This document shows, piece by piece, positions 17,835-64,000 of a stretch of DNA of 64,000 nt. The stretch comes from an uncultured delta proteobacterium (GTDB lineage Bacteria; Myxococcota; Myxococcia; Myxococcales; Anaeromyxobacteraceae), in assembly GCA_963845515.1 (NCBI GenBank), contig CAWJSR010000055.1, forward strand, positions 32,001 to 96,000, given 5' to 3'. Below the pieces are notes generated by a model. It did no database searches and had not been told where the DNA came from. It was given only the letters and a program-made list of their open reading frames with translations. How positions within the stretch are numbered: position 1 is the stretch's first letter; every line of letters starts with the position of its first letter. The position numbers were made by a program, and so were the translations under genes.

Positions 17835-18269
17835 TCAGTGGCGCTTGTGGCACTCCAGACATACGGTCGAGTACTTCGCCCTGAACCCGAACTTCTGCGC
17901 CTTCACATCGTGTGGGTCATGACACGTGTGGCAGATGATCCTCCCCCCCTCCTCGACGGGCAGGGTCGCTGGAGGCGGATCCTGGATCTTGCCGACGTGC
18001 GTCATCGTCGTCCCTGGGTGGCACTCGTGACAGAGGTCGGGCTCCTTCGCGCGCAGCTTGCCGGCCTGTGACACGTGGCAGCGCTGGCAGAGCGGCGCGC
18101 CCTTGTAGTCGTGGGCGTTCTTCCACTCCTTGACGTCCGCCTCCGGCTGGACGGTCCAGGGAGCCTTCGGCGGCGGTGACGGGCGGCGCGCGATCTTCGG
18201 CCCGCCACAGCCGCCGAGCGACACGGCGACTACGGCGGCCAGAGCCAGGGAGAGGGGTGCAGGGCGCAT
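17835..18269 (-). CDS. Small tetraheme c-type cytochrome lipoprotein
   Basis: MRPAPLSLALAAVVAVSLGGC lipobox. CQRCH, CHECH, CHTCHDPH, CLECH. Confidence 0.88.
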   Translation of the reverse strand: MRPAPLSLALAAVVAVSLGGCGGPKIARRPSPPPKAPWTVQPEADVKEWKNAHDYKGAPLCQRCHVSQAGKLRAKEPDLCHECHPGTTMTHVGKIQDPPPATLPVEEGGRIICHTCHDPHDVKAQKFGFRAKYSTVCLECHKRH

Positions 18270-18307
18270 GGTCGGGAATTTACCATGACGCGCACCTCTC
18301 GACCGAC

Positions 18308-19144
18308 TCAGAACACGGGCGCGTCCGGCACCGTGAAGACGTGCATCGAGCCCTGCAGGACCGTCCCCACGCCGAAGTAGGCGATGACCACGAGCAGCAC
18401 CGCGAACATGGCGAACCAGGCGAAGCGCTGGTCGCGCCAGCCATAGGTGACGCGGAGGTGGATCAGGACGCCATACGCGAGCCACGCCAGGAGGTTCCAC
18501 GTCTCGAGGGGATCCCACGACCAGTACGCGCCCCACAGATCCTTCGCCCAGATCGCCCCCGAGGCGATCATGACCGCGCACGTGATGAACCCGAACACCA
18601 CGTACCGGTAGGCCACGCGGTCCAGCTCCTCGAGGGACGGCAGCCGCTCCGCTGCGGGCAGGCGGCCCGCCCTTCGCAGCAGGTAGGCCAGCGAGGCACC
18701 GCTCGCCACCGAGAAGGCGGCGTACGCGAGGAACGCGAAGAAGACGTGCACGTAGAGCCACACGCTCCGCAGCGACGGCGCCATCGGGCCACCGGCGGTG
18801 TTCTGCGTGACGCTCCACCCGAGGATCACGAGCGCGAGGGCGAGGGCACCGATCCCGACGGACCTGAACAGCTTCCAGGCCGCAGGCGCGGCGAAGGCGA
18901 ACACGACTATGGACCAGGCTCCAGTGGAGGCGTTCTCGTACGGCGTCGCGATTGGCGCGTGCCCGGTCTCGACCCAGCGCGCCAGCAAGGCCGCGGTGTG
19001 CGCCGCGAGCCCCGTGCCGGCCGCGATCCGCCCGAAGAGCGCCAGCCGGTCGCGCTGGAAGACGAGCGCCGCCAGCGGCAGGACGAGCCCCGCGGCGTAG
19101 GTGACGAAGACGATCGCCAGCAAGCTGGCTTCAAGGCGTGACAT
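18308..19144 (-). CDS. resC: Cytochrome c biogenesis system II heme lyase ResC/CcsA
   Basis: WWD domain GAIWAKDLWGAYWSWDPLETW, conserved His in WLYVHV and LIHLR, PYEN motif. Confidence 0.93.
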   Translation of the reverse strand: MSRLEASLLAIVFVTYAAGLVLPLAALVFQRDRLALFGRIAAGTGLAAHTAALLARWVETGHAPIATPYENASTGAWSIVVFAFAAPAAWKLFRSVGIGALALALVILGWSVTQNTAGGPMAPSLRSVWLYVHVFFAFLAYAAFSVASGASLAYLLRRAGRLPAAERLPSLEELDRVAYRYVVFGFITCAVMIASGAIWAKDLWGAYWSWDPLETWNLLAWLAYGVLIHLRVTYGWRDQRFAWFAMFAVLLVVIAYFGVGTVLQGSMHVFTVPDAPVF

Positions 19145-20576
19145 CTCTCTCCCCTTCCCCACGGAGGAAGCCGCTCCCCTCGAGGTACCGGCACAGATCA
19201 CCGACGACCTCGGACTGATCCCCTCTACCCCCCGCGTCCGAGGCGGCCGCGACGAACAGCCTCTGCCCAGCCGAATCGACCGCCAGCGCGATCTCGCGCC
19301 GATAGAGCCAGAGGCGGGTGACCAGCCCGGCGATCCCCGAGAGGAACCCCGCCCACAGGAGGCCACCGCCGCGCTCGCGGGTCACCTGGAACTCCCCGGC
19401 GAGCCTCACCTCTGGCACACGCAGGAGGAAGGTCTTTCCGGGATCCGAGAGCGCTCCCCCTGGACCGACCAGCCCGGACACGGGCGGCTGCCCCGCCCGG
19501 CGAGCCGTCACCTCCAGCCCGTTCGGCATCGCGGCAGCGATCCCCTCCTGCGTCGCAGACCGCGCCAGTCCGACGCCACGCTCCTCGCTCCGTGCCCGCC
19601 GGGCCAGGCGCACCTCGACCTCGAGGCCGCACCCGTCGAGCCGGGCTCGATTGGCGCCGTCCGGCGTCCGGCGGAGCTTCACGAACGCCCCGTCGACCGC
19701 CCCGTCCGACGTCTCGCAGACGAACAGTGGGGCCGGCCTGGCGTCCATGATCAGGATGGAGACCGCTCCGCGGACGATCGGCTCGTTGATGGAGACACGC
19801 GTGGGGAGCGGCTCGCCCCCGACCATGACGTCGGCGGAGAGGCCGAGCGGGTTGTCCCCCGAACGCGCGGCGTGCACCGCCAGCACGCGAAAGGTGACCT
19901 CCGGGTATCGCGGCCCGATGCGGGGCAGGACGGGCGGCGAGGGATACGGGCCCTTCGCGTCGAACTCCTCCCCCTCCGCCACGAGGGCGAGCCCTGAGAA
20001 GCTGGTCAGGTCGAGCACGATCCCGGCCGCGAGGAGCAGCGCGAGCGAGCCGTGGAAGAGCAGGAACCCCAGCGGGGCAAGGCGGAAGCGGACGCCGCGA
20101 GCCGTGAGGGGCGCGGCGCTCCAGACGGCGTAGCCCCGCGCCTCGAGGAAGCCCACCGCGGCCCCGTGCGCGTCCGGCCCCTTCACGTCCAGGGTGACCG
20201 TCCCGGAGCGCCGGGCGAGGATCTCCGGGACCGTGGAGATCCCCTCGTCGAGCCGTGTCCTGCGGACGAGCCTGGGGATCCGATCGGCGAGCACCGCCGT
20301 GAGCGAGAGCAGGAACAGGACGAGGATCGACACCATCACCGGCGAGCGGAGCACGTCGGTCGCGCCCAGCGCCTCGAGCACCGCGACCGTGCGTGGCCGG
20401 GTCGTCCTCCAAGCCTCGTAGAGGGTCGGCTCGAAGGTCGCGCGCTGGGGAACCAGCAGCGACGCCAGGTAGAGCACGCCGAGCGAGGTCAGGATGAAGA
20501 TGATGGTGGCCCTGCCCCTCAGGGCCTCGGCCAGGTGCCGGACCCACCTGCCGAGGGCGGTCAGAGCGCGAGCCAA
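19131..20576 (-). CDS. resB: Cytochrome c biogenesis protein ResB/CcsB
   Basis: LASLLVPQ, LGATDVLRSP, LGFLLFHGSLALLLAAG, F.G..LVAEGE, C-terminal TM. Overlaps resC. Start (TTG 20576) is approximate. Confidence 0.82.
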   Translation of the reverse strand: MARALTALGRWVRHLAEALRGRATIIFILTSLGVLYLASLLVPQRATFEPTLYEAWRTTRPRTVAVLEALGATDVLRSPVMVSILVLFLLSLTAVLADRIPRLVRRTRLDEGISTVPEILARRSGTVTLDVKGPDAHGAAVGFLEARGYAVWSAAPLTARGVRFRLAPLGFLLFHGSLALLLAAGIVLDLTSFSGLALVAEGEEFDAKGPYPSPPVLPRIGPRYPEVTFRVLAVHAARSGDNPLGLSADVMVGGEPLPTRVSINEPIVRGAVSILIMDARPAPLFVCETSDGAVDGAFVKLRRTPDGANRARLDGCGLEVEVRLARRARSEERGVGLARSATQEGIAAAMPNGLEVTARRAGQPPVSGLVGPGGALSDPGKTFLLRVPEVRLAGEFQVTRERGGGLLWAGFLSGIAGLVTRLWLYRREIALAVDSAGQRLFVAAASDAGGRGDQSEVVGDLCRYLEGSGFLRGEGERDVTP

Positions 20577-22180
20577 GACCTGCCCCGGACCAGGTTCCGC
20601 GCCATCGCGAACTCGAGCCACGGATCGTCGTCGCGATTCAGCCGAGGCGGTGGCCCGCCGGCGAGGACCTCCCTGACGCCGCGCGCGTCGAGCACCTGCT
20701 CGATCGGTGCGGCGGTGCTCCAGAGCGGCTCGTCCAGCGCCGAGAGCCGTGCGAGCAGCCCGGAGTCGTCGAACGGCTTGCCGGAGCCGATGAGCACGAG
20801 ATCGTCGTTGGACTTCACCCGCCAGACCGAAAGCTCGGGGAAGGACCTGGCCGCCGTCGCGAGGAGCGCGCGGCGCTCCTCGTCGTCCAGCAGGTACCCC
20901 GGGACCCAGGCGACCAGGAGCCCCGCTGGCCGGAGCCGCTGCCTGGCGAGCCCGAAGAACTCGCTCGTGAAGAGGCTCCCGGAGGTGGCGTCCACCGGGA
21001 AGGACGGGCCCGAGACGATGGCGTCGTAGGGGCCGGACCGCTCCGAGAGCAGACGGCGACCGTCCCCCCGGACCAGGTAACGCTGCAGGTCGGAGCGGAA
21101 ATACAGGTTCACCGCCTCGATCACGTCGGGGTTGATCTCGGCGCACTCCACCGACGCGGTCCGGTAGAGATCCAGCAGCAGGACGAGGGTCCGGCCGGTC
21201 CCCAACCCGATCGCGAAGATGTCCTCCTGATCGCCGCGGATCGCGCCCGGCAGCAGGGCCAGGAGATGCTGCGTCGTCCGCTCGGTGCTCCGGCTGGCCC
21301 CCTCGATCCTCCCGTCGACCACGAGCACGCGCATCCCCGCCTCGTCCTCGAGGACCTGGACCCGGCCGTGCGGCGACCAGCGATCGAAGATCGCGGTCAT
21401 CGCTCCGAGGCGCGGCCCGAGGTTGGCGTCCTCCAGCGCCCTCCCGGCGAGGTGGTAGCCGACCGGCGTGCGCGGGGGCTGGAGCAGGAACGCCACGCCG
21501 GCGGCGAGGAGCAGCACTGCGGCGACCCCTCGCGCGGAGAGGCGCTGCCCGGCGGCCACCAGCACGAGCACACCGGCGACGACGTTGGCGGACGACGCCG
21601 CCAGCAGCGTCCCCCAGATCCCGGCGGCCGGCAGGAGCGCGAAGCCAGCCAGCGCGCTCCCGGCGATCGATCCCATGAGGTTCGCCGCGTAGGCGCCCCC
21701 GACCGCGTGCGCGACGCGCTCCGGCTCCGTGGAGGCCACGAGCTTCGCGACCAGCGGAAACGTGATCCCCATCAGCACCGTCGGCGCCAGCACCGCTGGC
21801 AGGCAGAGCACGACGTCCAGCGCGAAGTAGGCCACCGGCTGGAGCTGGAAGCGCTGGAACGTCCAGAGGTGCACGGCCGGAAGGGCCCGCATCCCCACGA
21901 CCGAGAGCACGGCGGTGACCGCGACCCCGAGCTCGCACAGGGCGACGGTCCGGGCCGCGTTCTTGAGCCGATCGCCGATCCGCGCCCCGATCCATCCCCC
22001 CAGCGCCAGCCCGGCCATGAGCGCGGTGAGCATGCCCGAGACGGCGTAGACGGAGGAGCCGAGGACGAGCTGGAGATAACGGGTCCAGACGACCTCGTCG
22101 GCGAGCGTCGCGGCCCCGGAGAACCCGTAGGCTATGAAGATCAACCTCTCTCGCGTGAGACTGCGACCGGGCTGGCTCAT
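20561..22180 (-). CDS. Membrane-fused spermidine-synthase-like SAM-binding protein
   Basis: N-terminal TM domain FSGAATLADEVVWTRYL..VLGSSVY, PTVLMGITFPL, YAANLMGS. C-terminal IGLGTG, EINPDV, GDGR, YDAIVS.PS, LFTSEFF, NRDDDPWLEF. Confidence 0.85.
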   Translation of the reverse strand: MSQPGRSLTRERLIFIAYGFSGAATLADEVVWTRYLQLVLGSSVYAVSGMLTALMAGLALGGWIGARIGDRLKNAARTVALCELGVAVTAVLSVVGMRALPAVHLWTFQRFQLQPVAYFALDVVLCLPAVLAPTVLMGITFPLVAKLVASTEPERVAHAVGGAYAANLMGSIAGSALAGFALLPAAGIWGTLLAASSANVVAGVLVLVAAGQRLSARGVAAVLLLAAGVAFLLQPPRTPVGYHLAGRALEDANLGPRLGAMTAIFDRWSPHGRVQVLEDEAGMRVLVVDGRIEGASRSTERTTQHLLALLPGAIRGDQEDIFAIGLGTGRTLVLLLDLYRTASVECAEINPDVIEAVNLYFRSDLQRYLVRGDGRRLLSERSGPYDAIVSGPSFPVDATSGSLFTSEFFGLARQRLRPAGLLVAWVPGYLLDDEERRALLATAARSFPELSVWRVKSNDDLVLIGSGKPFDDSGLLARLSALDEPLWSTAAPIEQVLDARGVREVLAGGPPPRLNRDDDPWLEFAMARNLVRGRSWLAL

Positions 22181-23343
22181 CCGGGCCACCGCTCGGCGAT
22201 CGCCGCGCCCGCGCTCGCCGGCCAGACCGTCAGCGACCCTCCCCCGTCCTCGCGGTACCAGTAGGGCCTCGGCCGGAAGAACGCCCCGAGGACCAGCGCT
22301 AGCACGGCCGCGGCCATCGACCAGAGAGTCATGGCGCGGAAGGTGCGGTGGGCGACTCCCATTCGCAGGTAGGGGCGCAGCTCCCATGCGATCACGGCGT
22401 ACCCGTCCTGCCCCTCGACGACCCGTCGCGGCGCGAGCTCAGCCTCGAGGACGACCTTCCCATCGACAACGAGCCTCGCGTGCGGCTTCCCTTCGACGCC
22501 TTCGGCCCAGGGCCAGTCGGCCACCCGGACCTCCAGCGCGGAGCCATCGGCTCCGACCGTCGCCGGAACGTCCCCGCACGCGACCCCGGGGAGGAGCGGC
22601 ACCGGCCCGTCGAAGAGCCTGCCCATCTCCTGCTGCAGGACCGTGAGATGGATCCCCGGGCCGAAGCCCATGACGAAGAGGTCCATCCCCGCCACCGCCA
22701 CCCGCTCGTGCGCCGAGGCAGCCCGCTCGACGAGCGCGGTCCCGCGCGAGTCGACGACCTTGAGATCGAACAGCCGGTCGGGCGTCCCGGGCCGAACCTC
22801 GTTCACGGCCACGCCGAACTTCAGGTCGCCGGGATCAGCGAACACGCCGAGATCGAGCGACTCGAACGTCGCCCGCCGGTCGAGATCGATCGCCGACATG
22901 GCGTACTGGAGCCACGTCCCTTCGATGTGAAGCCCGACGTTGAGCAACCCGGAGAGCAGGGCGCAGGTGACTGCCCCCCAGCTCACGGCCGGGACCCACG
23001 CGCGCCAGCGCTCCACATACCCGGCGCCCTCGCCGTCCGCCCTCCGAAGCGCGCGCTGGAGCACCACCTCGGACGGCCCCTTCGCGAGCTGAACCCCCTC
23101 TCCAGCAGGTCTTCGACCCGGCGCCGGACCGCGAAGCGCGTTCGCCATCCAGCGCGCCGAGCTCCAGGCGGCGCCGAGGAAGGCCACCGTCGCGGTGGCC
23201 GCGAGGATCTCAGGGAGGATTGGGAGGCCGCCCGCGATCCGCAACGCCAAGCAGGAGCGCGAACAAGGCCGTGGCGGCCCAGCCGAGCCACCCCGGCCGA
23301 GCGGTCGCGAGATCACGGAACGACATCGTGCGCACGATACCAC
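22177..23343 (-). CDS. Divergent ResB-like membrane protein (true start uncertain, probably about 23230)
   Basis: TM, TM, periplasmic beta-rich domain, C-terminal TM + RPRPYW, matching the ResB C-terminal layout. Stop overlaps the next ATG. Confidence 0.5.
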   Translation of the reverse strand: MVSCARCRSVISRPLGRGGSAGPPRPCSRSCLALRIAGGLPILPEILAATATVAFLGAAWSSARWMANALRGPAPGRRPAGEGVQLAKGPSEVVLQRALRRADGEGAGYVERWRAWVPAVSWGAVTCALLSGLLNVGLHIEGTWLQYAMSAIDLDRRATFESLDLGVFADPGDLKFGVAVNEVRPGTPDRLFDLKVVDSRGTALVERAASAHERVAVAGMDLFVMGFGPGIHLTVLQQEMGRLFDGPVPLLPGVACGDVPATVGADGSALEVRVADWPWAEGVEGKPHARLVVDGKVVLEAELAPRRVVEGQDGYAVIAWELRPYLRMGVAHRTFRAMTLWSMAAAVLALVLGAFFRPRPYWYREDGGGSLTVWPASAGAAIAERWPG

Positions 23344-23380: not shown

Positions 23381-26300
23381 CTAGTAGTTCAGCGGACGTG
23401 ATGCCGCGCCATCGGTCGTCGGGAACGTGTTGGTCGTGCCGCGTCCGTGCTGCCCACACGAGCCGAGCGAGACGGCCGGGTCGGGCGCGTTGCCGATCGT
23501 GTAGCACTTGTACGTACGCGCGACGCCGGTGCGCGGTCGCCCACCTCGCCTTGTCCTGCCCCGGCTGGCCGGTGTCGGCCGCAGTGTTCGTGTCGATCGG
23601 GTTGTACTCGCTCTGCGACGATCCGTTCATGAACCGCCACGCCTTGCGCGTGGTCGCGAGGTTGGCGAACGGAATGGCCTCACCCGAGCCGTGGATGCCG
23701 CCGTAGGTCGTGCCGCCGTGGCAGTGGATGCACCCGAGCCCGAACAGGGTGCCCTTCGACGCGTTCCTCGTCCCCGAGTCGTACGGCGGGCCGAAGACCT
23801 CGGTCAGATCGCCGGCGTTCTCCGGACCGTGAACGCCGCCTGCGCCCTTGTTGACGTACTTCGTCTTCGGGTGGCACCGGTAGCACACGGCGTTGCCGAG
23901 GCCGAACGACCCCAGCGCGTCGTTGGTGTCCGAGGTGGCGCAGCCGTTCGCGGCCGCGCCATCGCAGGCCCGCAGCAGGTACTCCGCGTTGACCCCGCCG
24001 TGAGCATTCAAGGTGGAGCGGTGGCAGTCGGAGCAGTACATCTTCGACGTGTCGTCGCAGACCGCGTCCGCGCAGGCCGCCTGCGTCGTGAAGGTGTGCG
24101 TGTTCTTGATCGAGTAGGCCGGCGCCGCCGTCGTGTACCGGCTCTGATTGAAGAAGACCAGCGCGTGGTACGAGAACTTCGTCCACGTGGCCGTGTCACC
24201 CGCGCCGCCCGCGGCGCTCGGGTACGAGCCCAACGGATCGAACTGCGACTTGACGTTCACGACCGTCCCGCGCGTCGCCCCGCCCAGCGAGGCGGTCGCG
24301 CCGCGCAGGTTCGAGTCGCTCGCGCTCTTCACCAGCGATCCCTGGCCGAAGGGCCTCACCGTCCCGGCAGTACGAACCGCCCGAGGGCGTCGCGGCGTGC
24401 CACGCCGTGTCGGCCGGGTTCATGTTGTACGTGTAGAGGGCGCCGTTCACGTCGTGGCAGGAGAGGCAGAACTTGTCCAGGTTCGCCTTCTCCGTCGCGT
24501 CGATGCCGCCCACCACGCGATCGATGTAGTAGATCGTCCCGGCCGGATCCACGCCGGCGCCGTTCCAGTTGGCCGCCGAGTCGGCGTCCAGCAACTTCAC
24601 CGAGCTGATCCCAGCCTGGTTGTGGAGCGCGGTGGTCGTCACCTTCGTCCCGTCCGCGGACATCTTCCCCTCGGCGTGGCAGACGATGCAGTCCCACGCC
24701 TCCACCGACTCCGTGGTCGGCGTGGCCCCGACCACGTGGTGGCTGCGCCCCTTGAAGTCGCCGCCCACACCCGAGGCCGCCGTCACCTGCCGCCGCCTCG
24801 GCGTCGTCGTCGGCTGCCCCTTGTTGTGGCAACCCACGCAGTCGCCGCCCGTGGCATCCGCGCGACCCCGTTGAGGTGGAGCGCCTTGTTCACCGTCGTG
24901 TTCGTGTAGCCGACGTGGCAATCGACGCACGTGCTGCCGTAGTGGCCGCTCGCCGTCGAGGAGTCGAAGTGGCAAGTCCCGCAGGCCGCCTGCGACGCCC
25001 CTCCGGTCCAGCTCGGAACCTTGTTCGTCCCGCCGCTGCTCCCCGCGCCGTGGCAGTACGTGCTCGTGCACGTCGTCCCGGTCCAGCCGGGCGACAGCCC
25101 GCCCGTCTTGGTGAGCGTGTCGAACGCCACCTGCTTCGTCCCCTCGTGCGACGACCCGAGGTGGCACTCGTTGCAGGAGATCGCGCTGGCCCGCAGGTTG
25201 ATCTGGTTCACGTGCGCGATGTGCGCCCCGACCGCGCGCGTCGTCGTCGCCGTCTCGCCCGCCATGCCCACCGGCGGTGAGGACTCCAGGTTCGCGTCCG
25301 CTCCCGCCACCGGCGTACGGGCAGGCCCCGTGTTGCCGTGGCAGCTCTTGCACGACAGCGTCTCGCCCCACGCCGGGGTCGCGACGCCATGGCAGCTGAC
25401 GTTGCTGCACCTCTTCGTCGCCGTGTCGTAGTTCGAGGTGCCACCGTTCGTGTCGTACGTCGCCAGGATCGCCACGTCGATGAAGCCGTCCGTGTGCTTC
25501 GACCCGAGCACCTGCGTCGCGGTGCCGTCCACCATGTTCGCGTGACAGTAGGTGCAGCTCGCCGCCACCGTCAGCACGTGCTTCTGGTGGCTGTTCGAGT
25601 TCACCAGGTTCGCGCCTCCGTTCGCGTAGTTCGGCTCACCAAACTGCGACGTGAACGCCCCGCCGCTCACCGCGCCGTGGCACCCCTTGCAGTCCAGCGT
25701 CGCGACCTGGCCCCACACCACCGGCTTGTAGTCGTACGCCGTCGCGGATCCCGTCGTCAGCGGCCGGCCCGACGAGTGACAGTAGTTCGACGTGCAGTTG
25801 GGCGAGGCGTACGCCTGGCTCGTCTTCGCGTTCCGCGTCGCGAAGCCGACGTCCCTCGACCCGTTCACGTGCAGCGTAGCGTTCGAGACAGTCGTGTTCG
25901 CGCTCACCACGGTGTTGTGGCAGTCGACGCACCCGTAGTTGGCGCCGAGCACCGCCGCGTTGTTCACGTGCTCGTCGTGCGACGCCGTCGCGATCGCGGC
26001 CACGGCCGTGGCACTGCGTGCACGTCCCTGCCGCGTACGCCGCGTCCGTCCACTTGGGCTGGGTGTAGGTCGGAGAGGCCGTCCCGCTCGAGTGGCAGTA
26101 GACGGTCGAGCAGGTGTTCGTCCCGCCGGCGTAGGAGCCCAGCGCGTTCGGCGCGTTGAACCCGACGTCCTGCTTGTCGCCGTCCACGTGCTGCGACTCG
26201 ATCACCGTCGAGTCGGTGTTGATCGACGGCGTGTGACACCGCAGGCAGATGTACGCGTAGCTCGGGCTCGAATTGATGTGCTTCGCGTGCGTCGCCGACA

Positions 26301-47922: not shown

Positions 47923-48408
47923 CTACCGTGTGCCGGGGGGCGGCCTCGAGAACCCCCCGTCCACGTCGCGCAGCGCGACGCTACGTCGCCTGTTCACCAG
48001 CCCGTACTTCTCCGTCACCAGCGCGTCGCCGTCCACCCAGCAGGTGCCGTAGTTGGACTCCGCGACGTCGACGGCGACCGGCCTCCCGCGCCCGTCCCTG
48101 ATCACGGCCTCGACGAGCGCCATGTGCGCGCGCGACGCGAAGACCGCCAGGTCGCCCACCCGGACCTCGTCCGGCTGGATCCTCGTCGCCTGTGCCGCGC
48201 GCCCCTTCCCCAGGCGTCGTTCGACGTAGTCGGTGCAGAACCCGCCGCTCCGGAGCCAGCACCTCGTGTCGCCGACCGTGCAGCCCACCCGCTTCACCAC
48301 CTGGTTGACCACGCGGTTGGAGCAGACGGGGAGGTCCCCCGCGCTCCGCGCGTGCCCGCCGGATGCGGCTGTAGCGAGCGTCAGCGCCAGGGTCCAGGCT
48401 GCGCTCAT
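47923..48408 (-). CDS. Secreted CHAP-domain (Cys/His peptidoglycan amidase-like) protein
   Basis: Signal peptide. GGFCTDYV (catalytic Cys), VGDLAVF, HMALVEAV (His), ESNYG. Confidence 0.75.
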   Translation of the reverse strand: MSAAWTLALTLATAASGGHARSAGDLPVCSNRVVNQVVKRVGCTVGDTRCWLRSGGFCTDYVERRLGKGRAAQATRIQPDEVRVGDLAVFASRAHMALVEAVIRDGRGRPVAVDVAESNYGTCWVDGDALVTEKYGLVNRRRSVALRDVDGGFSRPPPGTR

Positions 48409-56100: not shown

Positions 56101-59100
56101 ACAGCTCGGGGACACGTACGTCTGGGTGGTCACCCGAGCTCCCCGCGGCGCGATGGAGACGTCCTTCACGCCGTTGACGTGGTTGGCGAGGCCGCCAGCC
56201 GAAATCGGCGAGTCGGTCGCGGCCGCCACGGTGTTCTGGTGGCAGGCGCCGCAGACGTAGTTCGTCCCGATCACCGACGCGTTGGCCACGTGGTTCATGT
56301 GGGCCGGGGAGCCCTGGAAGCTGGAGCCGGCCGCGACGCCGATGGTGGGCGGGGCCGTGGAGGTGAAGCCGTGGCAGGTCTGGCAGGTAGTCGCGGAGGC
56401 CGAGTTCCAGGCGATCGCCGCGCTGGCTGTCGCGCTGAAGGGCGATGCGGTGGCGACGCCGCCCGAGTGGCAGTAGGTGCTCGTACACGTGTAGCCCGGG
56501 GAGCCCGCGTAGGCGCCGCCCGACTGGTCGATCGTCGCGGCGATCGCGGTCGTCGAGAAGTCGACGTCCTTGACGGCATCGACGTGCTTTCCGACCGTGC
56601 CGATGGTGCCGGACGAGTTGTTCGCCATCGTCGGGGCATGGCACTCGTCGCACGTGTAGGAGTAGTTCCCGACGGTCCCGGCGACGTGCTTCTGGTGGCG
56701 CGTCGAGAGCCCCGTCCCACCGAAGACGGCGGTCTGGTGGCAGGTGGTGCAGCCCATCGGCGTCGTCGTGCTGGTCCACGAGATCGTCGACTGCGTCTGG
56801 ACGGTCCCGCCGAGCGGGGCGGCGTTGGAGTGGCAGTAGTTGGTGCAGGTCCCCGCCGTGTAGGACGGCGTCACGCCCGCGATGGCCGTCCAGCTCCAGG
56901 CGAGCGCCCCGTCCGCGTGAGTGATGGTGCCGTCCACGGGGATGGCGTGACACTGGGCGCACTTGCCCGACATGAATAGGCCCGCGTTCACGTGCTTGAT
57001 GTGCGCGCCGACGCCGACGAAGGTCCGCGCCGTGTTCCCCTTGCCGTCGACGGCGGTCGCGTCGAAGCCGGGGGCCGCGGCCGGGTCGGTGTTGAGCGCG
57101 ACGGGCGTGGTGCCCGCGGGCTGGATGACGCCGTGGCACGCGCGGCAGCCGGTCCCGTGCTGGACCGTGCCGTCGATGTGCGTGCCGATAGCAGGCGAGG
57201 TGAGCCCCGTCGTCGCGTAGCCGGCGCCGTGGCAGTTGGCGCAGGCGGCGTTCTGCGGGTGGTGGGCGTTCGTCAGGTTCGGCATCGCCACCGGGCCGGT
57301 CGCCTGGCCGTGGCAGCTCGAGCAGGTGGTCGCCTGGGCCGTGGCCCAGTTCCAGGCGAGGCCGCGGCCGCCTCCCGCGAGGCCATCGCCGTGGCACCAG
57401 TTGGTGCAGTTCGCGCTGGCGTGGGTGGGGGCCGTGCCCGTCCAGGTGCTCGCCAGGTTGCCTGCGAGCGGGACCATGCTCGCGTCCAGCATCGTGCCCT
57501 TGGCGATCGCGCTGTACCCGATCTGGACCGTCGGGGTCGTCTGGTGCGAGGCGCCCGTGTGGCAGTCGTTGCAGAGCAGCGGCGCGCTCCGGTAGGTCGC
57601 GAGGGTCACGTGCTTCAGGTGCTCGCCGCCGTTCGTGACGAAGACATTTGGCACCGGGTTGGGGGCGGCGCTGACGATGGGAGGCGCGGCCTGGAACTTG
57701 GAGTCGGCGCCGGCGGCGGCCGTGCGGGTCTCGGTGGCGTCACCGTGGCAGGCCGTGCAGCTCGCCCCGAGCCCCTTCGTGTGCTTGTGACAGGCGCCGC
57801 AGTTCCCGGTGCCGTGGGTCTCGGCGGCCGGGATGCCGTCCGCCTGGTACACGGCCGTCCGCGTGTGGCAGACCTCGCAGACGCCGGTGTTGCCGGCGCC
57901 GGTGCCGGGCTGGGCAAACGAGTTGGCCACGAAGCCGTTCTTGTTCAAGAAGGTGACGGTCTGCGGAGTGGTCGGACCGGTCAGCTCGGGCGGCTTGATC
58001 TGGGTCTTGACGAGGGCAAGGTTGGTCGTCGTGTGGGGCGTGTGGCAGTCGCGACAGGTGGCCGCCCACGAGCCGTACTTGCTCCCGGTGCTCTCGGACG
58101 AGTGGGTCATCACGCCGGCGTGGCAGTCGGAGCAGAGCTGGCTAGAGTTGTCGCGCACGAGCAGGTTGCCATCGCCCCTCGCCGTGGAGATCTTGACGGT
58201 GAGCGTCCCAGAGTAGACCGGGCCGCCGCCGATGGAGTTGGAGGCGTACGCCCGCAGGGTGACGGTGCTGCCGGCGGCATAGGCGCCGGCGGGGATGGTG
58301 TGCATCCAGACGCCGGACGTGCCCGCCGCCGGGCCGTAGTTGGCGCTCTTCGCCGTCGCGTTGAGCAGGATCCCCGCTCCGCCGTTGATGGTCAGGTAGA
58401 CCGTCTCCGCCGGGCTGAAGACCCCGCCGCCGGTGGGGCTGAACGCCCGGATCTGGACCTTCGCCGGCAGCGTGAGGACCGCGCCGTTCATGGGGTTGAT
58501 GATCGAGACGACCGGCCGGACGCTGTCGGGCGTGGGGTCGCCGTCGCCGATGAATGAGGACGGCACGTAGGGGCCGGCCGAGGCGGAGGCGATCGAGTTG
58601 TTGAGGCTCGCGTCGCGGGCGAAGGCGACGAAGTAGTAGCTCGAACCGGACGTCAGACCGCCGGCGGTGCATGCCTTGGCGCCCGGCGGGGCGAGGCACG
58701 CCACGAAGGACGTTCCGATGGTCTGCGAAGGTCCCGCCGCGTTGTAGTCGGTCCCCTCCACGGGCTTGTCCGTCGGCGCCGAACCGATCTTGCCGAGCAC
58801 CACCACCTCACCGCCCGTCGTGAAGTCGGCGTCCGACGGCTCCGCCGTCCATGCAAGTGAAACCTGGCTGTTGCCGGCCGTGCCCGAGAGCCCCGTCGGC
58901 GCACCGGTCGAGAGGTTGTCGATGGTCCTGGCCGCGCTGACGGTGTCGGTGCCGCTCAGCGTGTAGCCCGTCGCGGCGACCGCCGTGATCCGGCCGGTGA
59001 CCGCCACCTGCGTGCCGGGCGGCACCGCCATGGCGGCGTGCGTCTTCGGCGTCACGCAGACCCACAGGTTCGACGCGGTCGTGCTGAGCGTGAGCCCGGT

Positions 59101-60936
59101 GAAGGTCGTGAAGCTCGGAGCGTCCGAGGCGGGGTTGGTGATCGTGGAGTACGGGGTCGTCTGGGTGCAGGCGCTCGTGTTCTCGAGCGTGAGCGTCCCG
59201 ATCAGCGCCGCGGAGCCCGCCGGCATCGTCACGGTGATGCTGCTCGGCGTGACCGTACCGGTGTTAGTCACGAGCGTGAACGCGTCCAACGCGACCTCGG
59301 CGCCGCCCGGGGCGAGCGTCGTCACCGCCTCTCCGGTGGAGGCGTTGGCGAGGGTGATCTGTCCCGAGATCGCAGGGGTGATCGGCCCGACCGTGGCCGA
59401 CGGCACCGAGCTGTTGAGCCGCGAGTCCCTCGCGAACGCCTCGAAGTAGTACGCGGTCCCGTTGGTCAGGCCGGTGGCGGTGCAGGTCCTGGCTCCAGGC
59501 GCGGCGAGACACGCGACGAACGAGGTGCCGATCGTCTGCCCTACCGTGTTGTAGTCGGTCCCCTCGGCCGGAACGTCCACCGGTGCCGCGGTCGCCCTGC
59601 CAAGCACGACCACTTCGCCGCCCGCGGTGAAGTCCGCGTCGGCCGGCTCACCGGTCCAGCTCACGACCACCTGCCCACTGCCTGCCGTGCCGGAGAGCCC
59701 CGTGGGCGCCCCTGGCGACAGGTTGTCGATCGTCCTGGCGGCGCTGACGGTGTCGGTGCCGCTCATCGTGTAGCCCGTCGCGGCGACCGCCGTGATCTGG
59801 CCGGTGACCGCCACCTGCGTGCCGGGCGGCACCGCCATGGCGGGGTGCGTCTTCGGCGTCACGCAGACCCACAGGTTGGACGCGGTCGTGCCGAGCGTGA
59901 GGCCGGTGAACGTCGTGAAGCTCGGAGCGTCCGAGGCCGGGTTGGTGATCGTGGAGTACGGGGTCGCCTGGGTGCAGGCGCTCGTGTTCTCGAGCGTGAG
60001 CGTCCCGATCAGCGCCGCGGAGCCCGCCGGCATCGTCACGGTGATGCTGCTCGGCGTGACCGTGCCCGCGCTGGTCGCCAGCGTGAAGGCATCGAGAGCC
60101 ACCTCGGCTCCGCCCGGGGGGAGCGTCGTCGCCGCCTCGCCCGTCGTCGCGTTGGCGAGGTTGAGGGTGTTGGAGGGGGCCAGGGTCTCGGTGACGGTGA
60201 TCGTGCTCTGGGTGGTGGTGCTGTTGTTGATGTAGATGCGAGCTTGATCCCCCAGAGCATTCGGCCGAACCCAGGCCTCCAGCACCAACCGATGACCTGC
60301 GGCGACGGCGCCACCGGTCCCAGTCCACGACCCGATCGCGGTTCGCGTCTGGGTCGTAGGTAGGGCCACGGCGGCAGACGTGAACAGCACGACCCCGTTG
60401 CCCGCAGCACCGGCCGGATCGAAGTCGACGAGCTTGAACTGGATCTGGTCGGTGGTCGCCGTTCCCCGAACGTAGATGTTGGCCGATGGAGCGGTGATCG
60501 TCTGCGCCGAAGCGTAATTCGACGGCAGATAGATCCTGGCGAACTGCGTCCAGGTCAGAGCCGGGTCGGTGCTCAGGCTCCGGAAGTTCGCAGCGTTGGC
60601 GGCCTGGGCTGCCGTCTGGAGAAGGGTTCGGTGGTTGTTCGCGCCGCCGGTCAGCGCGGTGGCGGGAACGTTCGTGGATCCTTCGTTGGTGCTGATGAGG
60701 GTGCCCGTGTCCTGCCAGAGGTTGTAGGTCACGGTCGCCGCCCCCGCCCTCGCCGCGCCCAGCGCGAGCACCGCGACCCCCACCGCTCCCAGCCACCGCG
60801 CAGCTCGGCCCCCGGCGCCCGCCTCCGACGATCGGCGCCCGGCGTGCCGGCCGCGAGTCCGCGCCAGGTCGTCCCCTGAACGGGGAGAGGAGTCACCGAC
60901 CGTGGTGTGGAATACGCCCATCGCAGCCTCCGACAA
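53176..60936 (-). CDS. Giant secreted multiheme cytochrome (about 2580 aa; 28 CxxCH + 5 CX3-4CH) with N-terminal Ig/FN3 repeats and inserted CBM5/12 modules
   Basis: Intact ORF. Signal peptide ending ARAGA (ATG 60921 is the likely start). About 900-aa heme-free Thr-rich N-terminus with FN3 signatures (PTGLSGTAG..V..SW, TGLTNGTAYYF). 33 heme motifs by hand count. Confidence 0.93.
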   Translation of the reverse strand: MSEAAMGVFHTTVGDSSPRSGDDLARTRGRHAGRRSSEAGAGGRAARWLGAVGVAVLALGAARAGAATVTYNLWQDTGTLISTNEGSTNVPATALTGGANNHRTLLQTAAQAANAANFRSLSTDPALTWTQFARIYLPSNYASAQTITAPSANIYVRGTATTDQIQFKLVDFDPAGAAGNGVVLFTSAAVALPTTQTRTAIGSWTGTGGAVAAGHRLVLEAWVRPNALGDQARIYINNSTTTQSTITVTETLAPSNTLNLANATTGEAATTLPPGGAEVALDAFTLATSAGTVTPSSITVTMPAGSAALIGTLTLENTSACTQATPYSTITNPASDAPSFTTFTGLTLGTTASNLWVCVTPKTHPAMAVPPGTQVAVTGQITAVAATGYTMSGTDTVSAARTIDNLSPGAPTGLSGTAGSGQVVVSWTGEPADADFTAGGEVVVLGRATAAPVDVPAEGTDYNTVGQTIGTSFVACLAAPGARTCTATGLTNGTAYYFEAFARDSRLNSSVPSATVGPITPAISGQITLANASTGEAVTTLAPGGAEVALDAFTLVTNTGTVTPSSITVTMPAGSAALIGTLTLENTSACTQTTPYSTITNPASDAPSFTTFTGLTLSTTASNLWVCVTPKTHAAMAVPPGTQVAVTGRITAVAATGYTLSGTDTVSAARTIDNLSTGAPTGLSGTAGNSQVSLAWTAEPSDADFTTGGEVVVLGKIGSAPTDKPVEGTDYNAAGPSQTIGTSFVACLAPPGAKACTAGGLTSGSSYYFVAFARDASLNNSIASASAGPYVPSSFIGDGDPTPDSVRPVVSIINPMNGAVLTLPAKVQIRAFSPTGGGVFSPAETVYLTINGGAGILLNATAKSANYGPAAGTSGVWMHTIPAGAYAAGSTVTLRAYASNSIGGGPVYSGTLTVKISTARGDGNLLVRDNSSQLCSDCHAGVMTHSSESTGSKYGSWAATCRDCHTPHTTTNLALVKTQIKPPELTGPTTPQTVTFLNKNGFVANSFAQPGTGAGNTGVCEVCHTRTAVYQADGIPAAETHGTGNCGACHKHTKGLGASCTACHGDATETRTAAAGADSKFQAAPPIVSAAPNPVPNVFVTNGGEHLKHVTLATYRSAPLLCNDCHTGASHQTTPTVQIGYSAIAKGTMLDASMVPLAGNLASTWTGTAPTHASANCTNWCHGDGLAGGGRGLAWNWATAQATTCSSCHGQATGPVAMPNLTNAHHPQNAACANCHGAGYATTGLTSPAIGTHIDGTVQHGTGCRACHGVIQPAGTTPVALNTDPAAAPGFDATAVDGKGNTARTFVGVGAHIKHVNAGLFMSGKCAQCHAIPVDGTITHADGALAWSWTAIAGVTPSYTAGTCTNYCHSNAAPLGGTVQTQSTISWTSTTTPMGCTTCHQTAVFGGTGLSTRHQKHVAGTVGNYSYTCDECHAPTMANNSSGTIGTVGKHVDAVKDVDFSTTAIAATIDQSGGAYAGSPGYTCTSTYCHSGGVATASPFSATASAAIAWNSASATTCQTCHGFTSTAPPTIGVAAGSSFQGSPAHMNHVANASVIGTNYVCGACHQNTVAAATDSPISAGGLANHVNGVKDVSIAPRGARVTTQTYVSPSCVTTYCHSSGQRTATFVSAAWNSAAWLNKCNGCHGTGVGNTTGAPDYANGGINNAASNSHAKHVGASTDCAKCHSGLVDAAGTAIVGSSHTNGSIEASIATGLRGSNFAYVAGTAAPASATCAGITCHGNNATAVVWGGPAQTCSSCHGTTGVEVDDLGANFWNNGVAATINTTEWTYSGHGKASLTYDVTGNPAANFLTTPTAGTSECMFCHDSDASHYTPTNPFRLRGVTNAIGVSAPYDTSTTELANATCLNCHSATANGVDPDGAVTAYAKKVATLKSPSVHGGGKHTIDTLGGKFCWDCHDPHGDRPNNTTNNVAMLGKSVTAVSDGTYGYVGAAGVTRAVTYNSEAASPPAVGKAVEGAGTGTQRVGVCQACHAATNDTLLAGTAWTKYWNRLGYDDTDGVGGAAPVSSVHNSGSTTVPYCISCHTHATGFGGECTGCHATTQTITKGPLAGTRSRRDVVTEFRQTWSHKASTNATPANRTVSNADCAVCHMEANSPADATPSSLHGNGYLNLRDPDLGTEIQGVTFAGTPGAFTSTGSTVTGFGGFSRDLAVRFEADPSFAALAAIQANQCLKCHDSDGALSPLAQVPTSLMPNAAPWKPFGTTIAGNGYLASAALTACLGAPPAWSATVTYSYGMWVNVTGAYYEATNLTANLNKPPASSPTYWTAAAAYAATTTYPSGDWVTVGGIFYRSLQSGNLNNAPASSPAWWQVQNPIDGCVTNVAASFATSNSSYHPIMGKQNNSYAANTRMAVPWNMTKTTGNNTSWGYLMSCWDCHALPTDSGIITKTITAHGGTDTIRGTAFGSGASNPSTQSATLCIKCHAQYDTLSASNHGAGSAFSNSGNSGMTNALKNGCSMCHGGFWSGTVGTTQVRPLRAEDVHGFDALPAGGNVGTRKTRWLGTATGTPVTVNTRPYAFIRNTYVIGQHSPKSAVVGGATVVYSPGCSNPTTQAASNCGSMGGYTVGGVY
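58554..60167 (-). repeat. Tandem duplication of 807 bp (269 aa; Ig-like + FN3)
   Basis: 58934-59282 is nearly identical to 59741-60089 (VTPSSITVTMPAGSAALIGTLTLENTSACTQ...NLWVCVTPKTH..VSAARTIDNLS). Confidence 0.92.
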
Positions 60937-62143: not shown

Positions 62144-62160
62144 GTCAGTTCCCTTTGGCA

Positions 62161-64000
62161 CTACTGAACGGAGACCGTGACGGCGTACGGCGCGCTGCGG
62201 ACCGACCCGTCGTCGACGACCAGCTCGAACCGGTAGGTGCCGGCGGCCGGCGCCCGGAAGACCGCTGCGGCGCTGGCGCCGTCGAGGGCCACCCAGGGAC
62301 CGGCTACCTGTGTCCAGCGGTAACGAGTGCACCCCGTGCTGGCGCGGCCGTCGAGGATGACCAGCTCACCCACCAGAGCATCGGTCGGCGCAGTAGCGGA
62401 CGCGACGGGGAGCACCTTGCCGGGTGCAACCACGTCGAGCCGGACGATCGCGGGAGCGCCGACTGCACCGCTGCCGTCCGTGACGGTCAGCTCGAAGGCG
62501 AACGCGCCGGTGGCGAACGGAACGACCGTGGGGGTGGCGGAGTCGGCACCCGAGAGACCGGCCGCCGGCCCTGCGACCTGGCGCCATTGGTACGTGAGCG
62601 CGGAGCCGGTGCTGGCGGAGCCGTCGAGCGTGAGGGCGGTGTTGACCGTGCCGGTCGCCGGGCCCGACGCGACCGCGGCGGGCGGTGTCGCGCTCGCCGC
62701 GAGGACTGCCACCCGGGCTGGCGGCGAGCGGAGCGCGCCGTTCCAGGCGGTGACCTCGAAGACGTAGACTCCGGGAGCAGGCGGGGTGAACGACGGAGCC
62801 GCGACGCCCGGAAGCTCGGTCGTGCCGTCGACGTGCAGCCAGGAGAAGGTGACGCCCTGCGGCAGGCTCGCGCTCGCGTCGAGCGTCACGGGGACGCCGA
62901 CCGTGGCGGTCACGACGGGGCTGGCGACGATGACCGTCGGCAGCTGATCGTCAACCACGACGACGCCGAGGGTCTCGACGCCGGCGAGGCCGGCCGGGTC
63001 GATGGCGGTCAACTGGAAGGCGTAGTAGCCGGCAGCGCTGGGCCGGACCGTGAGGCTCGGGCCGCGCGCCACGACGGAGGTGGCAGGCCCGGCGACCTGC
63101 TCCCAGGCGTAGGTGAGCGCGTCGCCGTTGGCGTCACTCGAGAACGAGCCGGAGAGCGTCACGGTGCGCCCCGGCGAGGTGACGACGTCGGCCCCCGCGT
63201 CGGCGACCGGAGCGACGTTGAGCACCTTGACCTCGGCGACCGCTGGGGCGCTGGAGGCGGTCCCACACCTCGCGATCCCCTCGAAGCGATACGTGCCGGC
63301 CTTGCGGGCTATGAACGACGGCGTGAAGGTCGTGGCGTTGCGGAGCGTGACCGCGGTGCCGGAGAGCTGGCGCCAGGCGGCGACGCAGGTCCCCGTGCCG
63401 GTGCCGGTCGCGCTGATGGTGGCGAGCCCCGGGGGAACCTCGACCGGGCCGCCGACCACGCACTGCGGGCGGTGATCGCCGCCGTCCATCGGGTTGAAGC
63501 CGGCCAGCTTCTCGGCGCGGTCGTCGTAGCCATCGCCGTCGGTGTCGGCCTTGGTCGGATCGGTGCCGAGCGCGTACTCCTCGATGTTGTTCAGGCCATC
63601 CCCGTCTGGATCGGACAGCGCATCGCTCGCGTCGTTCGGGTCGAGGCGGTGCGCCAGCTCCCAGGCGTCGGGGAGCCCGTCGCAGTCTGCGTCGCCCGCG
63701 CAGGTCGGGAGAGCGGCACCCGTCCCGAAGCGGTCCACCCGGTTGAAGAAGGAGTTGCAGACTGCGAGGTCGCCGTTGGCCATGAACGCGAGGCCGCGCG
63801 GCTGCAGCAGGTAGCTGTCCACGTCCCCCGCGCTACCGATGGTTCCCACCGGCACCCCGGTGGAAGTGATCACCTGGACGGTGGAGGCGTACGCGTCGCT
63901 CACGAAGACCCGCCCGCCGGGGCCGACGGCAAGGCCGCCGGTGTCGACCACCTGACCAAGCGCGCTTCCGGACGTAAGCATCGAGCGGAGCCAGGTCGCC
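62161..64000 (-). CDS. NHL + TSP3-like + PKD/K319L Ig-repeat surface protein (5' truncated; paralog of 35409..37895)
   Basis: QPRGLAFMANGDL..RVDRFG.G..LP.C.GD.DCDG, DPDGDGLNNIEEYALGTDP..DTDGDG, NVAPVADAG PKD repeats, C-terminal VDDGSVRSAP. Confidence 0.88.
   Translation of the reverse strand, partial: ATWLRSMLTSGSALGQVVDTGGLAVGPGGRVFVSDAYASTVQVITSTGVPVGTIGSAGDVDSYLLQPRGLAFMANGDLAVCNSFFNRVDRFGTGAALPTCAGDADCDGLPDAWELAHRLDPNDASDALSDPDGDGLNNIEEYALGTDPTKADTDGDGYDDRAEKLAGFNPMDGGDHRPQCVVGGPVEVPPGLATISATGTGTGTCVAAWRQLSGTAVTLRNATTFTPSFIARKAGTYRFEGIARCGTASSAPAVAEVKVLNVAPVADAGADVVTSPGRTVTLSGSFSSDANGDALTYAWEQVAGPATSVVARGPSLTVRPSAAGYYAFQLTAIDPAGLAGVETLGVVVVDDQLPTVIVASPVVTATVGVPVTLDASASLPQGVTFSWLHVDGTTELPGVAAPSFTPPAPGVYVFEVTAWNGALRSPPARVAVLAASATPPAAVASGPATGTVNTALTLDGSASTGSALTYQWRQVAGPAAGLSGADSATPTVVPFATGAFAFELTVTDGSGAVGAPAIVRLDVVAPGKVLPVASATAPTDALVGELVILDGRASTGCTRYRWTQVAGPWVALDGASAAAVFRAPAAGTYRFELVVDDGSVRSAPYAVTVSVQ

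What the first reader, a model, noticed from the sequence alone, without database searches (positions are those of the whole stretch)
17835..64000. Duplicated giant-cytochrome assembly cassette with dedicated maturation and tailoring enzymes
Seen: the order PKD/NHL surface protein -> pentaheme cytochrome -> giant multiheme cytochrome -> ResB(-like) -> ResC occurs twice (64000->51156 and 37895->18308). Genes usually found in small-molecule tailoring sit inside or between the copies: three B12 radical SAMs, a LuxE-like ligase, a spermidine-synthase-like SAM enzyme, YfhO and CHAP. Several are translationally coupled by ATGA overlaps. Known: Geobacteraceae carry large CxxxxCH/CxxCH cytochromes in clusters with NHL and Res genes, but I know of no defined function for the tailoring genes. 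Inference: a self-contained system that builds, exports and chemically modifies very long single-chain heme wires.
Basis: partly seen in the sequence, partly recalled or inferred. Interest (0 to 1): 0.88.

Follow-up and report, generated by a model that had tools for sequence, protein, structure and literature searches.

The report
Special cofactor site on giant cytochromes
These giant electron-wire cytochromes end in an odd cysteine site that lacks the usual histidine and travel, across five bacterial phyla, with an altered heme-attaching enzyme and a relative of a chlorophyll-making enzyme, which hints at an undescribed modified heme at the tip of the wire.

Summary
The window has two cassettes (NHL/PKD protein, pentaheme, giant CxxxxCH cytochrome of 33 and about 80 heme motifs, ResB, ResC), and a third lies upstream. 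They are old paralogs (35-45% identical), not a fresh duplication. The many frameshifts are probably assembly errors. The cluster type is known: Geobacter cluster 3, tabulated in 2009 with rSAM, acyl-protein synthetase and spermidine-synthase-like genes.

Most 'tailoring' genes (CHAP, YfhO, SpdSyn-like, LuxE-like) are sporadic or unspecific. A tight triad emerged instead:
(1) a B12 radical SAM enzyme closest to BchE;
(2) a ResC clade whose WWD lysine, essential in C. jejuni CcsBA, is replaced by a hydrophobic residue;
(3) a C-terminal cytochrome domain ending in a His-less C-Xn-C, sometimes a single Cys.
The three co-occur in the same 50 of 121 Coriobacteriia and track each other in Anaeromyxobacteraceae; 0 of 66 Lys-type ResC loci lie near the site or the enzyme. 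Exceptions exist and kin are not independent.

Best reading: a dedicated maturation branch attaches a modified tetrapyrrole at the wire tip (link about 0.85, chemistry about 0.45, untested). Ten literature searches did not find it; this scan had noted only the BchE-like gene.

The parts
62161..64000 (-). NHL/TSP3/PKD surface protein 1 (5' part beyond the window; open frame 1115 aa)
   Evidence: Pfam PF22352, PF18884, PF01436; L001
61049..62143 (-). Pentaheme cytochrome 1
   Evidence: PF09699; 35% identical to pentaheme 2
53176..60921 (-). Giant cytochrome 1, about 2580 aa, 33 heme motifs, N-terminal Fn3/Ig-like region, C-terminal triheme domain
   Evidence: TIGR01904
53215..53250 (-). His-less terminal C-X10-C site of giant 1 (followed by Gly-Ser-Met)
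52027..53162 (-). ResB/CcsB 1 (frameshifted in assembly)
   Evidence: PF05140; intact ortholog in G001
51156..51984 (-). ResC/CcsA 1, Lys-less WWD (Val at the Lys position, 51359-51339); frameshifted
   Evidence: TIGR03144 below cut-off
49800..51122 (-). Short B12 radical SAM 1 (frameshifted; ends approximate)
48405..49766 (-). PD40/TmcD-like beta-propeller lipoprotein
   Evidence: also beside giant cytochromes in G019 and G106
47923..48408 (-). CHAP-like small protein; not conserved in any other locus held
45567..47876 (-). YfhO-like GT-C membrane protein (four paralogs elsewhere in the genome)
44250..45570 (-). Short B12 radical SAM 2 (frameshifted; end approximate)
43465..44186 (-). vapBC toxin-antitoxin pair, an insertion relative to G001
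   Evidence: TIGR00028
41928..43421 (+). LuxE-like acyl-protein synthetase/ANL enzyme (frameshifted)
   Evidence: intact ortholog L143 hits PF04443 1e-14 and PDB 7xc6 LuxE 1.5e-10
41416..41769 (+). Small three-helix membrane protein; frequent neighbour of the BchE-like gene (position of GSU2889/Gmet_0596)
   Evidence: no Pfam/NCBIfam hit; homologs in G001, G003, G005, G007, G010, G012, G015, G018, G138 and Coriobacteriia
39896..41305 (-). Hypothetical protein, also in G001 and G016 clusters
38195..39709 (-). BchE-like cobalamin-dependent radical SAM enzyme (core of the triad)
   Evidence: TIGR02026 371 bits, cut-off 481
35409..37895 (-). NHL/TSP3/PKD surface protein 2
34246..35406 (-). Pentaheme cytochrome 2
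   Evidence: no PDB sequence hit
23381..34203 (-). Giant cytochrome 2, about 3600 aa, about 80 heme motifs, split by frameshifts
23456..23506 (-). His-less terminal C-X15-C site of giant 2 (His three residues later), read in the frame after the last frameshift
22177..23326 (-). ResB-like membrane protein (no family hit; start uncertain)
   Evidence: homolog beside ResB/ResC in G007
20561..22180 (-). Fused membrane/spermidine-synthase-like SAM enzyme with GLGTG motif
   Evidence: NF037959 over cut-off
19131..20450 (-). ResB/CcsB 2 (start approximate)
   Evidence: PF05140 1.6e-20
18308..19141 (-). ResC/CcsA 2, Lys-less WWD (Leu at the Lys position, 18523-18503); the three CcsA-side histidines are kept
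17835..18269 (-). Tetraheme lipoprotein cytochrome

Best explanation
The locus is an Anaeromyxobacteraceae version of the Geobacter OmcA/H/G-OmcN cluster: secreted single-chain multiheme wires with surface NHL/PKD and pentaheme partners (shown by sequence; wire shape from published models). Its conserved core is a dedicated maturation branch. Step 1 (inferred): the cytoplasmic B12 radical SAM enzyme, nearest to BchE, converts heme or a porphyrin precursor into a modified tetrapyrrole that diffuses to every cassette. Step 2 (inferred): a Lys-less CcsBA exports it and attaches it to the His-less C-Xn-C (or single Cys) at the cytochrome's C-terminus. Step 3 (inferred): housekeeping CcsBA or System I loads the ordinary CxxCH sites. 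The terminal cofactor would be the wire's exit or catalytic site. Shown here: the three features and their co-occurrence (functional link about 0.85). Not shown: any cofactor or chemistry. LuxE-like, short rSAM and SpdSyn-like enzymes are optional extras; CHAP, YfhO and vapBC are passengers or general envelope genes.
For: ResC: 45 of 45 WxWDxxE motif rows (42 distinct) in loci gathered around BchE-like genes or cytochromes lack the Lys; the genome's own housekeeping ResC has WDPKE. The Lys-less and Lys-type groups are split by a 100/97 branch. That Lys lines the proposed first-Cys pocket (K842; PMC10663686, passages), and K988C leaves under 5% activity in C. jejuni CcsBA (PMC11322641, passages). 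Terminal site: of the 150 best library representatives, 129 are His-less CXnC, 9 single Cys, 10 CXnCH, 2 other; n runs 1-38; 6 of the 9 single-Cys proteins have no other free Cys, so no internal disulfide is possible there. Co-occurrence: Coriobacteriia, the same 50 of 121 genomes have the enzyme and the Lys-less pattern, and the domain is in those 50 plus one weak hit; 5 of 5 checked also have System I. Own family: 13 of 13 genomes with the close enzyme have Lys-less ResC, 1 of 11 others do, with within-genus contrasts in three genera. Metagenome ResC loci with the position left free: 0 of 66 Lys-type versus 5 of 10 V/L/I-type (4 of 4 at 6 kb or longer) lie by the site or the enzyme. Tetrapyrrole link: true BchE is the best named relative (34-37% versus 23-32%) and groups with the family (SH-aLRT 96); family members sit directly before hemA in 3 genomes and after hemC in 1; a single detected copy sits far from several cassettes in G007 and G015.
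Against: No biochemical data. CcmF naturally has Val at this position and attaches ordinary heme, so loss of Lys does not itself imply a changed heme. Exceptions: G165 and G100 have His-less multi-Cys termini without the enzyme family or a Lys-less ResC; G006, G014 and G022 have a diverged family member with neither partner; G318 has the enzyme only, and G317 and G319 showed no terminal domain; 3 of 11 enzyme-positive Desulfobacterota showed only canonical termini; G132 has a Met-type ResC inside the Lys clade without the enzyme. The 50 Coriobacteriia are probably one lineage, so they are far fewer than 50 independent events. 48 of 80 enzyme loci have no cytochrome of 4 or more hemes within the flanks. 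The BchE grouping is an unresolved three-way fork with one unrelated long branch, from a quick tree of 46 rows. The profile behind the 129-of-150 count was built from mostly His-less seeds.
Confidence: 0.45

Rival explanations
1. Ordinary heme b is attached at the His-less site by the dedicated Lys-less CcsBA, as with dedicated lyases for CXXCK or CX15CH. The BchE-like enzyme does something else for the same proteins, such as C-methylating a residue of the apo-cytochrome or boosting heme supply.
For: Dedicated CcsBAs for odd motifs are known (PMC10663686, passages). The Lys lies in the first-Cys pocket, which fits the variable n of 1-38 without any new chemistry. Foldseek's closest structures include the protein methylase MgmA and other methylases. 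Diverged family members sit beside hemA without the partners.
Against: It does not explain why the enzyme tracks this site rather than heme load: heme-rich complete genomes G008 and G024 lack it. The enzyme has no obvious export signal and acts in trans on many cassettes. Foldseek identities are only 14-22% and no BchE structure was among the listed hits.
Confidence: 0.25
2. The terminal C-Xn-C is a degenerate heme site that became a disulfide staple. The Lys-less ResC is just a high-throughput paralog for long cytochromes, and the enzyme co-occurs because the genes move together as a mobile block.
For: Spacing is highly variable and the later His could simply be the distal ligand of the previous heme. 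Loss of a heme site to a disulfide is known in type II SoxA (recalled, no call). The 2009 paper proposes dedicated pairs for efficient expression (PMC2700814, section 12). G165 and G100 have such termini without the other two parts.
Against: Six single-Cys proteins have no partner Cys. n=1 occurs in 13 of 129. The enzyme persists unlinked from the cassettes in G007, G015, G045 and G316, which argues against mere hitch-hiking. Lys-type ResC near 5-heme-or-larger cytochromes never had the site (0 of 9 such loci).
Confidence: 0.15
3. One reading: all the tailoring genes (three rSAMs, LuxE-like, SpdSyn-like, YfhO, CHAP) act together to modify the wire chemically, for example by acylation, aminopropylation and glycosylation.
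For: The G. metallireducens cluster also holds an acyl-protein synthetase, a spermidine-synthase-related protein, rSAMs and glycosyltransferases (PMC2700814 Table S5). Short rSAMs recur in 8 of 20 triad-linked regions examined and 0 of 4 control regions; LuxE-like genes in 4 of 20.
Against: Among 80 enzyme loci: LuxE 5, short rSAM 1-2, SpdSyn 0-1, YfhO 0, CHAP 0. SpdSyn-like is in 2 of 4 control clusters. Its motif is GLGTG rather than the aminopropyltransferase GGGDG (motif seen; the canonical form is recalled).
Confidence: 0.1

Closest known systems
Geobacter cytochrome c biogenesis gene cluster 3 (Gmet_0571-0601; GSU2880-2899, omcA/H/G/N), PMC2700814 Table S5
   Same: Giant multiheme cytochromes, NHL protein, several ResB/ResC pairs, radical SAM (GSU2888/Gmet_0597), acyl-protein synthetase (GSU2893), small hypothetical (GSU2889), spermidine-synthase-related gene. 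Locus G138 has the Gmet_0592-0601 order and heme counts, with the enzyme and a Lys-less ResC.
   Different: Here: three cassettes, PKD/TSP3 fusion on the NHL protein, an approximately 80-heme cytochrome, LuxE-like gene inverted. The passages and table read give no function for the enzyme and do not mention the Lys loss or the His-less site.
Dedicated System II synthases for odd motifs (Wolinella CXXCK and CX15CH CcsBAs), PMC10663686
   Same: An extra CcsBA encoded with, and presumably specific to, a non-canonical attachment motif.
   Different: Those are described as keeping the conserved features. Here a WWD pocket residue is changed, the motif has no proximal ligand after the second Cys, spacing is free, and a radical SAM enzyme is tied in.
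BchE, anaerobic Mg-protoporphyrin IX monomethyl ester cyclase (TIGR02026)
   Same: B12-binding plus radical SAM architecture, 34-37% identity over 94% of the length, same supported clade.
   Different: Below the family cut-off (371 versus 481 bits); no BchH Mg-chelatase found in the 88%-complete genome; neighbours are cytochrome maturation and hem genes.
NHL-associated multiheme cytochromes ending in CX3CH (GSU2203-like hits)
   Same: Homologous C-terminal triheme domain.
   Different: They keep a canonical terminal CX3CH and occur with or without the enzyme.
Predicted single-chain nanowire cytochromes OmcA/OmcH/OmcG, PMC11492766
   Same: Long extracellular multiheme chains; maturation flagged as a challenge.
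   Different: No mention of radical SAM enzymes in the main text (0 occurrences).

Membership tests
CxxxxCH/CxxCH domain cytochromes (TIGR01904/PF09698) | Repeats scoring over the curated cut-off | tested here: met
Geobacter cluster-3-type locus | Giant multiheme cytochromes with own ResB/ResC pairs and NHL protein | tested here: met
Geobacter cluster-3-type locus | Radical SAM, small membrane hypothetical and acyl-protein synthetase beside ResC | tested here: met
   All present in the window (order differs). Orthology inferred through G138, which shares the published order; GSU proteins themselves were not aligned.
BchE (TIGR02026 equivalog) | Score over cut-off 481 | tested here: not met
   371 bits
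BchE (TIGR02026 equivalog) | Chlorophyll pathway (Mg-chelatase BchH) in the genome | tested here: not met
   0 matches; genome 88% complete
BchE (TIGR02026 equivalog) | Ring E formation on Mg-protoporphyrin monomethyl ester | not testable with these tools
   needs assay
Class B (cobalamin-dependent) radical SAM | B12-binding domain plus CxxxCxxC radical SAM domain and matching fold | tested here: met
Canonical System II CcsA | WWD domain and conserved histidines | tested here: met
   ResC2 aligns to 7s9y with the three CcsA-side His kept
Canonical System II CcsA | WWD Lys (WDxKE) | tested here: not met
   Leu and Val in the window copies; TIGR03144 178.5 versus cut-off 187.6
LuxE acyl-protein synthetase (NF052244) | Score over cut-off and lux operon context | tested here: not met
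   50.5 versus 550 bits; PF04443 passed, so a LuxE-like fold only
Spermidine synthase SpeE (TIGR00417) | Score over cut-off | tested here: not met
   36 versus 250 bits; passes only fused MFS/SpdSyn NF037959
Polymerising nanowire cytochromes (OmcS/OmcE/OmcZ) | Sequence similarity of the pentaheme to solved filaments | tested here: not met
   no PDB hit at E<=0.01; fold not tested

The most novel reading that the evidence does not exclude
A non-photosynthetic sister of the chlorophyll ring-E cyclase makes a new iron tetrapyrrole (for example with a cyclised or oxidised propionate), and a specialised CcsBA branch installs it at a His-less C-terminal cysteine site of extracellular cytochrome wires in at least five phyla, including Geobacter. 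That would be a new biological cofactor, a new branch of cytochrome c maturation, and a living hint of what BchE chemistry did before chlorophyll.
Probability: 0.3. Interest if true: 0.93.

Novelty: new variant of a known kind. Interest (0 to 1): 0.78.

Why it matters
The purpose of the extra ResB/ResC pairs and of the BchE-annotated gene in Geobacter was left open in 2009 (PMC2700814). The triad turns that into a one-peptide experiment in a genetically tractable, harmless organism. If a modified heme caps these wires, it bears on how electrons leave giant cytochromes for minerals, electrodes or partner cells. Motif-based heme counts would miss this site in a large family: 1739 representatives at E<=1e-10 match the domain profile, a number that includes canonical relatives. 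It would also explain a widespread misannotated 'BchE' in non-phototrophs.

Tried and rejected
Rfam scan of the window: no hits, so no riboswitch was found. AlphaFold of the terminal domain failed (mean pLDDT 40), so no fold search was run on it and disulfide versus cofactor geometry was not resolved. PDB sequence search with the domain profile gave only generic multiheme hits; the Atlas search gave generic, low-recognition hits., and the 'DUFmem' script reference, used a wrong frame for the small membrane gene; those results are discarded and were redone. First idea that the WWD Lys binds a heme propionate: dropped, since the cited review places it in the first-Cys pocket. Idea that N890 is also specifically lost: dropped, since the housekeeping ResC lacks it too. 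Idea that the enzyme or Lys-less ResC is needed for CX4CH motifs: rejected. Recent tandem duplication: rejected. Pseudogenisation of the island: unlikely but not excluded (the best run may be the source sample; 5 of 28 other genes also show frame changes). No RNA holder was listed, so nothing can be said on expression. Literature searches found no paper linking these features; the library lacks most subscription journals and bioRxiv supplements, so prior description is not excluded. Passages of PMC13194489, PMC9686372 and bioRxiv 10.64898/2026.05.27.727921 held nothing on the triad. Complex prediction was not used. In one search only about 10 candidates per genome were scored, so some positives may be missed; pattern hit G087 was not inspected.
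Full report
SETTING. The window is G000:C55:32001-96000 of an 88%-complete, 70% GC genome. Its nearest BchE-like hits come from Anaeromyxobacteraceae, which I take as its family (inference).

OBSERVATION. Both cassettes are present as described. Giant 1 is one 2580-aa frame with 33 heme motifs. Giant 2 runs 34203-23381 with 80 motifs over shifting frames. A third cassette (BchE-like, giant, ResC, ResB) and more short rSAM, SpdSyn-like and GT-C genes lie upstream. Copies are 35-45% identical. Against a same-genus genome at 86% nucleotide identity, the window has many single-base insertions. Short-read contigs lack seven of them (12 of 57 rows shown), and G001 carries cassette 1 intact. The breaks are therefore probably assembly errors, although some laid contigs may be from a sister strain.

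WHAT WAS KNOWN. PMC2700814 (section 12 and Table S5 read whole) lists the Geobacter cluster with giant cytochromes, NHL protein, several ResB/ResC pairs, radical SAM, acyl-protein synthetase and spermidine-synthase-related genes. It suggests each pair is dedicated to nearby cytochromes and says their purposes remain to be determined. PMC11492766 (passages) predicts OmcA/H/G to be long single-chain wires. So the cluster type is known and the accessory functions are not.

TESTING THE TAILORING IDEA. CxxxxCH cytochromes occur in 24 of 24 family genomes. The close BchE-like gene occurs in 13 of 24 and LuxE-like in 3 of 24. Around the 80 best BchE-like loci in GTDB (Myxococcota, Coriobacteriia, Acidobacteriota, Pseudomonadota, Desulfobacterota) I found cytochromes of 4 or more hemes in 32, ResC in 26, ResB in 21, a small membrane protein in 13, LuxE in 5, short rSAM in 1-2, SpdSyn in 0-1, YfhO and CHAP in 0. 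In 151 genomes of Geobacter's phylum, 11 had the enzyme and 10 of these 11 had ResC or a multiheme cytochrome in the flanks. The enzyme-ResC link is the conserved one; the rest is optional.

FEATURE 1, A LYS-LESS ResC. All 45 WxWDxxE motif rows in those loci (42 distinct) lack the canonical Lys; the genome's housekeeping ResC has WDPKE. Five enzyme-negative family genomes showed only WDPKE or WDPQQ types among the motifs read. A tree of 52 rows separates the two groups at 100/97, with one Met-type exception inside the Lys clade. The Lys is K842 of the proposed first-Cys pocket (PMC10663686, passages), and K988C nearly abolishes C. jejuni synthase activity (PMC11322641, passages). Caution: CcmF has Val here naturally.

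FEATURE 2, A HIS-LESS TERMINAL SITE. Cytochromes beside the enzyme share a C-terminal triheme domain ending in C-Xn-C with no His after the second Cys. All three giants of this genome have it. Related domains ending in CX3CH occur with and without the enzyme. Of the 150 best library representatives, 129 are His-less, 9 have one Cys, 10 are canonical and 2 unclassified. n ranges 1-38, and a His follows 3-5 residues later in 112 of 129; the profile was seeded mostly with His-less rows. Six of the nine single-Cys proteins have no other free Cys.

FEATURE 3, THE ENZYME. It has a class B radical SAM fold. Its best NCBIfam hit is BchE (371 bits, next 132, cut-off 481), and its best named plasmid relatives are true BchE. 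In a quick tree the family and true BchE share a clade at SH-aLRT 96, in an open fork with one other long branch. No BchH was found. Members lie directly before hemA in three genomes and after hemC in one. BchE acts on a tetrapyrrole propionate (PMC5972617, passages).

CO-OCCURRENCE. Coriobacteriia: enzyme in 50 of 121, Lys-less pattern in the identical 50, domain in those 50 plus one weak hit; 29 of 30 inspected termini are clearly His-less; 5 of 5 checked also carry System I. These 50 are probably one lineage. Own family: Lys-less ResC in 13 of 13 enzyme-positive and 1 of 11 other genomes (the one is 84% complete); no domain hit in the 10 genomes lacking Lys-less ResC; His-less or single-Cys termini seen in 11 of the 14 that have it. 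Metagenomes, Lys position left free: 66 Lys, 2 Arg, 2 Thr, 10 V/L/I loci. None of the Lys, Arg or Thr loci, but 5 of 10 V/L/I loci (4 of 4 at 6 kb or longer), lie by the site or the enzyme. Two Gammaproteobacteria have all three parts on separate contigs.

EXCEPTIONS. G165 and G100 have His-less termini without the other parts. G006, G014 and G022 have a diverged enzyme alone. G318 has the enzyme only; G317 and G319 showed no domain; G048, G064 and G169 showed only canonical termini. Many of these are draft genomes, but not all exceptions can be assumed to be gaps.

MECHANISM. Shown: the three features and their linkage. Inferred: the site carries something that a canonical CcsBA cannot install, because it offers no proximal His and a variable or absent first Cys, and the changed pocket accommodates this. 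Further inferred: the cytoplasmic BchE sister supplies a diffusible modified tetrapyrrole, since a single detected gene accompanies several distant cassettes that each keep their own ResC.

VERDICT. A real, known cluster type that contains an apparently undescribed, directly testable maturation branch (not found in ten searches of an open-access library). New variant of a known kind; interest 0.78.

Noticed in passing
L002:3073-16921 and 17116-18622 (G000:C55 about 117000-132600): Third cassette upstream of the window: second BchE-like gene (frameshifted), giant cytochrome with His-less C-X11-C end, Lys-less ResC, ResB.
   Followed up: partly
window 1-17800: Further NHL proteins and multiheme cytochromes on the + strand, then four TPR-bearing GT-C membrane proteins, a methyltransferase and a methyltransferase-GT2 fusion: a likely surface glycosylation block beside the cytochromes.
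   Followed up: no
window 43465-44186; G000:C55:135334-135759: vapBC pair inserted between rSAM2 and the LuxE-like gene; an 85%-identical PIN gene lies at the far end of the island.
   Followed up: partly
L001:9144-19034: Fic-domain gene, carbamoyltransferase, GDSL-like protein and DUF6311 between cassettes 1 and 3.
   Followed up: no
L148-L151, L114: Geobacter-type genomes carry two BchE-like paralogs about 4 kb apart around a rhodanese gene and a two-component system.
   Followed up: no
L261, L265 (G165, G100): 11-heme cytochromes with Cys-rich His-less C-termini but no triad enzyme or Lys-less ResC: possibly a separate variant.
   Followed up: partly
L377, L379, L376 (G006, G018, G022): A fast-evolving subclade of the BchE-like family sits before hemA or beside multiheme genes without its partners.
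   Followed up: partly
L516, L522, L525-L527 (Coriobacteriia): Monoderm Coriobacteriia carry System I (CcmF, CcmC) together with several System II-type Lys-less ResCs; cytochrome frames of up to about 5000 aa occur.
   Followed up: partly
L154:6060-8893 (G106): Cobalt uptake genes (CbiM, ABC) lie next to the BchE-like gene, fitting cobalamin dependence.
   Followed up: no
L040:7250-7999, L042, L002, L392: An unnamed secreted protein with a G(L/V)xGR motif recurs beside these cassettes; no Pfam hit.
   Followed up: no
L292, L299, L314, L316, L317: A further ResC-like clade with WDPQQ/WDPKQ motifs occurs in Anaeromyxobacteraceae regardless of the triad.
   Followed up: no
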